Below the pieces are notes generated by a model, which saw nothing but the letters and a program-made list of their open reading frames with translations, was not told the DNA's origin and did not search any database. A stretch of 64,000 nucleotides of DNA from Acidimicrobiales bacterium (lineage in GTDB: Bacteria > Actinomycetota > Acidimicrobiia > Acidimicrobiales > Aldehydirespiratoraceae). A program made the translations under genes and the position numbers. The DNA lies in NCBI GenBank assembly GCA_965117015.1, contig OZ220747.1:3086921-3150920 (forward strand), given 5' to 3'. Positions 63,802 through 63,909 of this stretch are shown here, in pieces; the first letter of the stretch is position 1; every line of letters starts with the position of its first letter.

Positions 63802-63832
63802 GGGCAAGACTCCGGAATTGCGGTCCGAATCA

Positions 63833-63869
63833 CCCCCCCCCCCCCCCCCCCCCCCCCCCCCCCCCCCCC
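63833..63869 (+). repeat. homopolymeric C tract (37 nt as given)
   Basis: Counted directly: C run from 63833 to 63869. It is flanked by GAATCACC (63827-63834) and GGTGATTC (63877-63884), and by GACTCC (63808-63813) and GGAGTC (63887-63892). Confidence 0.9.
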
Positions 63870-63909
63870 ACCGGCCGGTGATTCATGGAGTCCGGCGGTT
63901 CGGCGACGC

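What the first reader, a model, noticed from the sequence alone, without database searches (positions are those of the whole stretch)
63808..63892. 37-nt homopolymeric C run in the loop of an interrupted inverted repeat between two operons
A run of 37 C (63833-63869) plus ACCGGCC is enclosed by GAATCACC / GGTGATTC. Further out lies GACTCC / GGAGTC, with an 11-nt asymmetry on the left arm. Homopolymer tracts this long are exceptional in bacterial chromosomes; known phase-variable tracts are much shorter. The structure lies 18 nt after the stop of the upstream minus-strand gene and about 30 nt upstream of the -35 of the candidate SBP-operon promoter. If real, it could act as a terminator or insulator, a hypermutable spacer, or an i-motif/G-rich RNA element. 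It is equally the kind of feature produced by sequencing or assembly artefacts (no-signal poly-G calls, fold-back chimeras). That must be excluded first, and the stated length is unlikely to be exact.
Basis: seen in the sequence. Interest (0 to 1): 0.65.

Follow-up and report, generated by a model that had tools for sequence, protein, structure and literature searches.

The report
Poly-C run at a gene-deletion scar
The 37-base run of C is really in the sequence, and it sits exactly where this sponge-associated actinobacterium lost an 0.86-kb hydrolase gene that its closest relatives still carry, so it is most likely a functionless repair scar or an assembly error, not a conserved regulatory element.

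Summary
The C37 run (63833-63869) is present as described. It is the only homopolymer longer than 6 in the 64-kb window. In 305 kb from related genomes the longest run is 7.

Comparison with relatives changes the reading. In four close relatives (L001, L003, L013, L024), an 858-bp Abhydrolase_3/arylformamidase-type gene lies on the opposite strand between the tryptophan 2,3-dioxygenase (TDO) stop and the promoter of the substrate-binding protein (SBP) operon. The window lacks that gene. It keeps about 35 nt of the gene's 3' end, now carrying an in-frame stop. It also keeps the promoter-proximal half of a hairpin. The run fills the junction, as 5 probably ancestral C plus about 32 extra. A fifth relative (L010) lost the same gene by a different, clean deletion with no run, and its TDO gene abuts the SBP promoter directly. 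No insulator is therefore needed at this position.

The flanking inverted repeat is only weakly non-random and is not predicted to fold. No terminator or Rfam family matches. No independent assembly of the same strain could be retrieved, so I could not check whether the run is authentic. My estimate is about 55% a real repair or slippage scar and about 40% an artefact. Interest is low to moderate.

The parts
63833..63869 (+). C37 homopolymer (G37 on the gene-sense minus strand). By comparison with L003/L013/L024, the last 5 C (63865-63869) correspond to an ancestral CCCCC and about 32 C are extra.
   Evidence: ancestral state
63870..63902 (+). Remnant of the 3' end of the lost Abhydrolase_3/arylformamidase-type gene. 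It reads T G R * F M E S G G S, where homologues read ...T G R F I L E x G G stop.
63808..63832 (+). Retained promoter-proximal half of the hairpin region (relatives have ACTCCGGA-N16-TCCGGAGT). The deletion breakpoint lies after GAATCA at 63832.
63827..63834 (+). Inner inverted-repeat arm GAATCACC; its partner is GGTGATTC at 63877-63884.
   Evidence: significance; folding
63877..63892 (+). Right-hand inverted-repeat arms GGTGATTC (63877-63884) and GGAGTC (63887-63892). They lie inside the gene remnant and exist only because of substitutions specific to this lineage.
63772..63801 (-). Sigma-70-like promoter of the SBP operon, TTGACA-18-TAATAT, conserved in L001, L003, L010, L013 and L024.
62509..63711 (-). 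Substrate-binding lipoprotein gene (Peripla_BP_4) with an EPEP-repeat linker; first gene downstream of the run.
63910..64000 (-). 3' end (29 codons plus stop) of a tryptophan 2,3-dioxygenase gene that runs off the window.

Best explanation
The run is filler at the junction of a real ~0.86-kb deletion. That deletion removed an arylformamidase-type hydrolase gene, its 5' region and half of a promoter-proximal hairpin, all lying between the TDO gene and the SBP operon. The ancestral sequence ended in CCCCC at one breakpoint. The extra ~32 C were added in one of two ways. Either reiterative (slipped) copying of that C5:G5 stretch, or template-independent addition, occurred while the break was joined. 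Or replication slippage extended the run later, in a lineage whose mismatch repair (NucS type in Actinomycetota, my own knowledge) does not correct indels. The run has no dedicated function. It is a hypermutable scar that happens to lie 31 nt upstream of the SBP promoter, and its stated length is approximate. Shown: the deletion, its breakpoints, the decayed remnant, and the absence of the run from relatives. Inferred: that the run exists in the DNA, and how it was made.
For: (1) Four relatives carry the 286-aa hydrolase gene between the same flanks. They come from independent assemblies: L001 (metaMDBG contig, 5x), L003 (Illumina MAG), L013 (circular 3.97-Mb contig, 46x) and L024 (Logan). (2) The window's flanks are collinear with them. 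The run begins exactly where L003, L013 and L024 have GGTGGGGGAG (L001 has GGTGGGCGAGG) and ends where they have CCGGA|TGATTC. (3) The remnant has an in-frame TGA in place of the F of the RFILE tail. That tail, or a close variant of it, is kept in 26 of the 27 closest homologues; the exception is a partial sequence. The remnant has also lost the normal stop, and 8 of 40 nt differ from L003. This fits a pseudogene fragment and does not fit a gene hidden by mis-assembly. (4) L010 lost the same gene by an independent clean deletion, so loss of this gene recurs in the clade. (5) No copy of the gene lies elsewhere in the window. (6) The identity switch between the window and L001 lies at ~62450, not at the run, so the run is not a chimeric strain join. 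(7) The source appears to be a >1-Mb contig. Relatives of that size class are PacBio HiFi/metaMDBG assemblies, in which contig bases are taken from reads and polished by read consensus.
Against: A pure 37-nt homopolymer is far beyond anything I know of in bacterial chromosomes. This clade otherwise has no run >7 in 305 kb, and such a tract should be unstable and interrupted if old. No second assembly reproduces it. The window's own SBP and MarR products are not on record, the source contig could not be fetched, and scans of JGI metagenomes for both flanks found nothing. If 5 C are ancestral, the surplus is exactly 32, the number of bases in one 64-bit 2-bit-packed word, which looks like software. 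Homopolymeric filler of this length is not a documented product of bacterial end joining (my own knowledge; one search found no such report).
Confidence: 0.45

Rival explanations
1. The run is a sequencing, assembly or software artefact. The real genome has either a short junction (about GAATCA-CCCCC-ACCGG) or, less likely, the intact hydrolase gene, and ~32 C were introduced when the contig was built at a strain-variable breakpoint.
For: The run is unique in 64 kb plus 305 kb of relatives. It lies at a structural variant that differs between co-occurring strains, the kind of place where assemblies fail. The surplus over the ancestral C5 is exactly 32. About 20 of 122 runs were internal with ordinary sequence on both sides. 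No independent assembly confirms the run.
Against: Dark-cycle poly-G arises at read 3' ends, and 102 of 122 IMG/VR runs lie within 150 nt of a locus end. Here both flanks are unique, collinear and on one strand. The deletion itself looks real and not recent (decayed remnant; independent loss in L010), and an unrelated artefact landing exactly on a real junction would be a coincidence. The probable pipeline (HiFi reads, metaMDBG, read-consensus polishing) has no step described that writes homopolymers. The figure of 32 depends on assuming 5 ancestral C, whereas L001 has 3 and L009 has 4.
Confidence: 0.4
2. The run is real and functional. G37 lies on the sense (non-template) strand and could act as a G-quadruplex or R-loop block that insulates the SBP promoter from TDO read-through. 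Alternatively it could be a length-variable spacer that tunes an upstream operator relative to the promoter (phase variation).
For: It lies 41 nt after the TDO stop and 31 nt before the -35 hexamer, in the sense orientation of both genes. G37 trivially satisfies a quadruplex motif. Substitutions specific to this lineage create complementarity (GACTCC/GGAGTC, GAATCACC/GGTGATTC) around it.
Against: It is not conserved in any of the related loci. L010 has the TDO stop 22 nt from the SBP -35 with no intervening element, so insulation is not required. The run is outside the -35/-10 spacer and outside any ORF, where known phase-variable tracts act. No terminator-like site or stable fold was found, nor any Rfam family. 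The inverted repeat is near background frequency.
Confidence: 0.1
3. The inverted repeat plus run is the end or footprint of a mobile or fold-back element (MITE, REP-like repeat or hairpin telomere-like structure).
For: A nested inverted repeat surrounds the run. With A plus the 37 C (38 nt) removed, the junction reads as a perfect 20-bp palindrome, GAATCACCGGCCGGTGATTC.
Against: Neither the palindrome nor the left arm occurs anywhere else in the window, even with 3 mismatches allowed. Both arms are homologous to ordinary single-copy sequence in relatives: a hairpin loop and the hydrolase 3' end. The central ACCGGCCGGT is ancestral coding sequence.
Confidence: 0.03

Closest known systems
Phase-variable homopolymeric tracts (contingency loci) of Neisseria, Campylobacter, Bordetella, Helicobacter and Mycobacterium
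   Same: A pure G:C homopolymer in or near a promoter region, expected to change length by slipped-strand mispairing.
   Different: Those tracts are about 7-20 nt (my own knowledge; compare PMC2831843 and PMC1891110 listed). They lie inside ORFs or between or adjacent to the promoter hexamers, and they are conserved as loci across strains. This one is 37 nt, lies 31 nt upstream of the -35 hexamer, and is absent from all relatives.
Filler or N-nucleotide insertions at end-joining junctions (TdT, Pol theta, bacterial LigD polymerase domain)
   Same: Extra nucleotides sit exactly at a deletion junction that shows no evident microhomology. One end carries a short run (C5) that could template reiterative copying. 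Pol theta is described as alternating between templated and non-templated extension (PMC4912351, abstract seen).
   Different: Bacterial Ku/LigD joining is known for single or few-nucleotide additions (my own knowledge). A ~32-nt homopolymer is not documented. Presence of Ku/LigD in this organism was not tested.
Poly-G artefacts of two-colour Illumina chemistry and homopolymer joins in metagenome assemblies
   Same: Long pure G or C runs in assembled metagenomic contigs are frequent.
   Different: Most of those are terminal, or are G runs abutting C runs. This one is internal to an apparently >1-Mb long-read contig, with collinear unique flanks.
Poly-G tracts associated with deletions in Caenorhabditis elegans dog-1 (FANCJ) mutants
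   Same: A long G tract directly abuts a deletion of a few hundred bp on one side (my own knowledge).
   Different: There the tract precedes and causes the deletion. Here relatives have only G3 to G5 (G5 in most) at that site, so the long tract did not pre-exist.

Membership tests
Phase-variable homopolymeric tract (contingency locus) | Tract lies within an ORF, or within or adjacent to the -35/-10 promoter elements, so that length changes switch expression | tested here: not met
   The run is intergenic and starts 31 nt upstream of the -35 hexamer.
Phase-variable homopolymeric tract (contingency locus) | The locus is conserved across strains, with length polymorphism | tested here: not met
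   No run >=8 at the orthologous site or anywhere else in 23 related loci, 305 kb. Polymorphism within the population is not testable without reads.
Intrinsic (Rho-independent) terminator | G+C-rich stem-loop followed by a U tract on the sense strand | tested here: not met
   No terminator-like site on the minus strand in 63300-64000. The minimum-free-energy fold does not use the repeat and is weaker than shuffles.
G-quadruplex-forming sequence | Four or more G runs of >=3 within a short span on one strand | tested here: met
   G37 on the minus strand. This is met by sequence only. Folding and function are not testable here.
Dark-cycle poly-G sequencing artefact | G run at read 3' ends, hence at contig ends, or as G runs abutting C runs at false joins | tested here: inconclusive
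   The run is internal, single-type and has collinear unique flanks. In IMG/VR, 102 of 122 runs are terminal but ~20 are internal. Reads are not available.
End-joining filler DNA | An insertion lies exactly at a deletion junction relative to the ancestral state, without long homology at the breakpoints | tested here: met
   Breakpoints are ...GGTGGGGG|AGTCGG... and ...CTCCGGA|TGATTC... in L003, L013 and L024, with the run between the retained ends. The origin of the filler is inferred.
End-joining filler DNA | The organism encodes the end-joining machinery (Ku, LigD or equivalent) | not tested
   Only 64 kb of the genome is available; no search was made.
Known structured RNA families (Rfam) | Match to a covariance model | tested here: not met
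   No match with E <= 1 in 63400-64000 on either strand.

The most novel reading that the evidence does not exclude
The tract is real and was made in one step, when a chromosomal break in this actinobacterial sponge symbiont was repaired by homopolymeric (template-independent or reiterative) DNA synthesis seeded on a C5:G5 stretch. That would be a bacterial counterpart of TdT or Pol theta-type additions. It would leave a ~37-nt quadruplex-forming G block on the sense strand between two operons.
Probability: 0.15. Interest if true: 0.6.

Novelty: new variant of a known kind. Interest (0 to 1): 0.3.

Why it matters
If real, this would be among the longest pure homopolymers reported in a bacterial chromosome. 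It would be a natural example of homopolymeric filler at a break-repair junction in a phylum that lacks MutS/MutL, which bears on how such genomes tolerate slippage-prone DNA. It would also mark repeated loss of the formamidase step of a kynurenine-pathway cluster in sponge symbionts. If it is an artefact, it is a useful warning that long internal homopolymers can survive in megabase-scale metagenome-assembled contigs at strain-variable breakpoints. In neither case is there evidence for a new regulatory system.

Tried and rejected
**Fetching the source contig or another assembly of the same strain**
- Exact look-ups of the window's SBP (400, 420 and 300 aa forms) and MarR (174 aa) found nothing.
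- Look-ups of two other window proteins showed a '>1 Mb' block whose contig was never returned.
- Logan contig L002 (ERR14375724) is 100% identical to the window but stops at 62458, 1.4 kb short of the run.

**Searching for the window's TDO allele**
- I looked for the tail SGGSDGAAYLRTTIMRPAFGDLWAIRTSF among 120 representatives and about 140 cluster members. There was no exact match.
- The nearest match, P0184/L009, is a different organism with a compact cluster.

**Other dead ends**
- JGI metagenome scans for both flanks found nothing.
- Chimeric strain join at the run: rejected, because the identity switch to L001 is at ~62450.
- Fold-back chimera or missed-adapter palindrome: rejected, because only 8+6 nt are complementary and the flanks match single-copy sequence in relatives.
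- Repeated or mobile element: rejected.
- Relocation of the hydrolase within the window: rejected.
- Literature searches found no report of HiFi poly-G artefacts or of homopolymeric filler in bacterial NHEJ that explains the run. Neither the organism name nor the run accession is in the library.

Full report
**Observation**

The sequence shows 37 consecutive C at 63833-63869. In the whole 64-kb window (69% G+C) no other homopolymer exceeds 6 nt.

Both neighbouring genes lie on the minus strand, so the run reads as G37 in their sense orientation. Upstream is the last 29 codons of a tryptophan 2,3-dioxygenase (TDO) gene, with its stop at 63910-63912. Downstream is a substrate-binding lipoprotein gene of the Peripla_BP_4 family at 62509-63711, the first gene of an SBP-MarR-hydrolase-peptidase-ABC operon. 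A strong promoter-like site, TTGACA-18-TAATAT, lies at 63801-63772 on the minus strand. The run therefore starts 31 nt upstream of the -35 hexamer.

**The inverted repeat is weak evidence**

Perfect 8-nt inverted repeats with 20-60-nt loops occur 138 times in this window, 35 of them with an outer 6-nt repeat within 20 nt. Any given position therefore has roughly a 2-9% chance of being bracketed this way. The RNA (sense strand) and DNA folds do not use the repeat as the dominant structure, and both fold less well than shuffled controls. No terminator-like site is found on the sense strand and no Rfam family matches.

**Organism and relatives**

Exact-protein look-ups and a scan of species-representative genomes place the window in sponge-associated Acidimicrobiia. 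Five loci share the local gene order:
- L001, a metaMDBG-style contig at 5x coverage. It is 99% identical to the window over 9.8 kb.
- L003, Illumina MAG SB0668_bin_28.
- L013, a circular 3.97-Mb contig at 46x.
- L024, a Logan contig.
- L010, a 152-kb contig at 29x.

**What the comparison shows**

In L001, L003, L013 and L024 a 286-aa Abhydrolase_3 family gene lies between the TDO stop and the SBP promoter, on the opposite strand. JGI names its relatives 'arylformamidase'. It sits in a cluster with a kynurenine 3-monooxygenase-like FAD enzyme, TDO, kynureninase, 3-hydroxyanthranilate dioxygenase and an aldehyde dehydrogenase. I infer from this context that it is the kynurenine formamidase of the pathway.

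The window lacks this gene, and no copy lies elsewhere in the 64 kb. In the window's + orientation the relatives read:
- ...GACTCCGGAATTGCCGCCAGAATCA|TCCGGAGTGG...[gene]...GACT|CCCCCACCGGCCGGTTCATCCTGGAGGCCGGCGGCTAG

The window reads:
- ...GACTCCGGAATTGCGGTCCGAATCA-C37-ACCGGCCGGTGATTCATGGAGTCCGGCGGTTCG

The run therefore fills the junction of a deletion of about 856 bp. That deletion took out the gene, its 5' region and the distal arm of a promoter-proximal hairpin (ACTCCGGA-N16-TCCGGAGT in relatives). Three independent assemblies have exactly five C at the right-hand breakpoint. On that basis the run is 5 ancestral C plus about 32 extra.

**Is the deletion real?**

Several observations say yes.
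- The retained 3' fragment reads T G R * F M E S G G S. Of the 27 closest homologues, which go down to 74% identity, 26 end in ...RFILE-x-GG or a close variant of it. The remaining one is a partial sequence.
- The fragment has an in-frame TGA, has lost the normal stop, and differs from L003 at 8 of 40 nt, compared with 5 of 88 in the adjacent TDO coding sequence. This is what a decaying remnant looks like. It is not what an intact gene skipped by an assembler looks like. A 7-residue shorter but functional protein cannot be formally excluded.
- L010 lost the same gene through a different, clean deletion (TGA-GCGCTGCTACCCGCCCTGCTGC|TTGACAAG) with no homopolymer. Loss of this gene therefore recurs in the clade.
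- The drop in identity between the window and L001, from 100% to about 93%, occurs at about 62450 and not at the run. The run is not the seam of a chimeric strain join.

**Is the run real?**

I could not test this directly. The window's own SBP and MarR products are not on record. A '>1 Mb' contig that carries two other window proteins was never returned. Logan contig L002, which is 100% identical to the window, stops 1.4 kb short of the run. Both flank searches in JGI metagenomes were empty.

Arguments for authenticity:
- The run lies exactly on a real junction and next to an ancestral C5 that could seed slippage.
- Relatives of this contig-size class are PacBio HiFi/metaMDBG assemblies, in which bases come from reads and a read-consensus polish.
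- A dark-cycle poly-G artefact arises at read 3' ends and cannot simply join unique sequence on both sides of one strand.

Arguments against:
- The length and purity of the run are extreme.
- This clade has no run longer than 7 in 305 kb.
- The surplus equals 32, the number of bases in one 64-bit 2-bit-packed word. This depends on assuming five ancestral C, whereas L001 has three and L009 has four.
- Long C or G runs are common in public assembled contigs, and about one in six of those sampled were internal.

I put the run at about 55% real and about 40% artefact.

**Function**

Nothing indicates a dedicated role. The run is not conserved. It lies outside the core promoter and outside any ORF. 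L010 shows that TDO can sit 22 nt from the SBP -35 hexamer with nothing in between. If the run is real, the most likely account is a hypermutable scar, made either by reiterative or non-templated synthesis during end joining or by later slippage. This is inference. The statement that NucS-type repair in Actinomycetota does not correct indels rests on my own knowledge. As a side effect, G37 on the non-template strand could impede read-through from TDO. That is testable but unsupported.

**Verdict**

The hairpin-loop regulatory reading is not supported. The feature is best described as homopolymer filler at a gene-loss junction whose authenticity must be settled with reads. Interest is low to moderate.

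Noticed in passing
window 63709-63775 (-), and L001, L003, L005, L007, L010, L024: The 5' UTR of the SBP gene has a conserved 8-bp stem-loop (GUCGGCCC...GGGCCGGC) with compensatory changes at two pairs across seven loci. A second short helix follows that pairs the GGGGA of the ribosome-binding region with UCCCC just before the AUG. This may be a translational control or mRNA-stabilising element. It has no Rfam match.
   Followed up: partly
L010 3880-3925, compared with window 63796-63912: A related strain (29x contig) lost the same hydrolase gene by an independent, clean deletion that also removed the hairpin. Its TDO stop lies 22 nt from the SBP -35 hexamer. The presumed formamidase step of the kynurenine cluster has therefore been lost repeatedly.
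   Followed up: partly
window 63415-63619 (-): The SBP linker is an 18-nt tandem repeat encoding (E/A/V)EPEP units. It varies in copy number and sequence among strains (400, 401 and 411 aa forms), and gene callers often skip it, calling 300-, 263- and 158-aa products.
   Followed up: partly
window ~62450; L002 position 1: Identity between the window and L001 falls from 100% to about 93% at ~62450, exactly where the Logan contig from ERR14375724 ends. This indicates a recombination boundary or strain bubble at the MarR/SBP junction.
   Followed up: partly
L001 1500-5400: The 5x contig has apparent frameshifts in the monooxygenase, TDO, hydrolase and SBP genes (split tblastn hits and truncated gene calls). 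Low-coverage contigs of this assembly type are not reliable at single-base level.
   Followed up: no
L009, L014-L023, L004, L007, L008: The kynurenine-pathway cluster is arranged differently in neighbouring lineages. L009 has a compact KMO-TDO-formamidase-Aldh-DHDPS-HAO-KYNU cluster. L014-L023 have a DLH-type hydrolase after TDO. In L004, L007 and L008 the SBP operon lies upstream of KMO. The SBP-MarR-hydrolase-peptidase-ABC-LysR block looks like an insertion into the cluster in the window's group.
   Followed up: no
window 63865-63869, compared with L003 5494-5500: If the five ancestral C are subtracted, the surplus is exactly 32 C. That is one 64-bit word of 2-bit-coded bases; an all-ones word decodes to G x32 in A,C,T,G or UCSC .2bit order. 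This may be a software signature or a coincidence.
   Followed up: no
Of 122 runs, 102 lie within 150 nt of a locus end, and some internal ones are C runs abutting G runs (L028, L064), the signature of false joins.
   Followed up: partly
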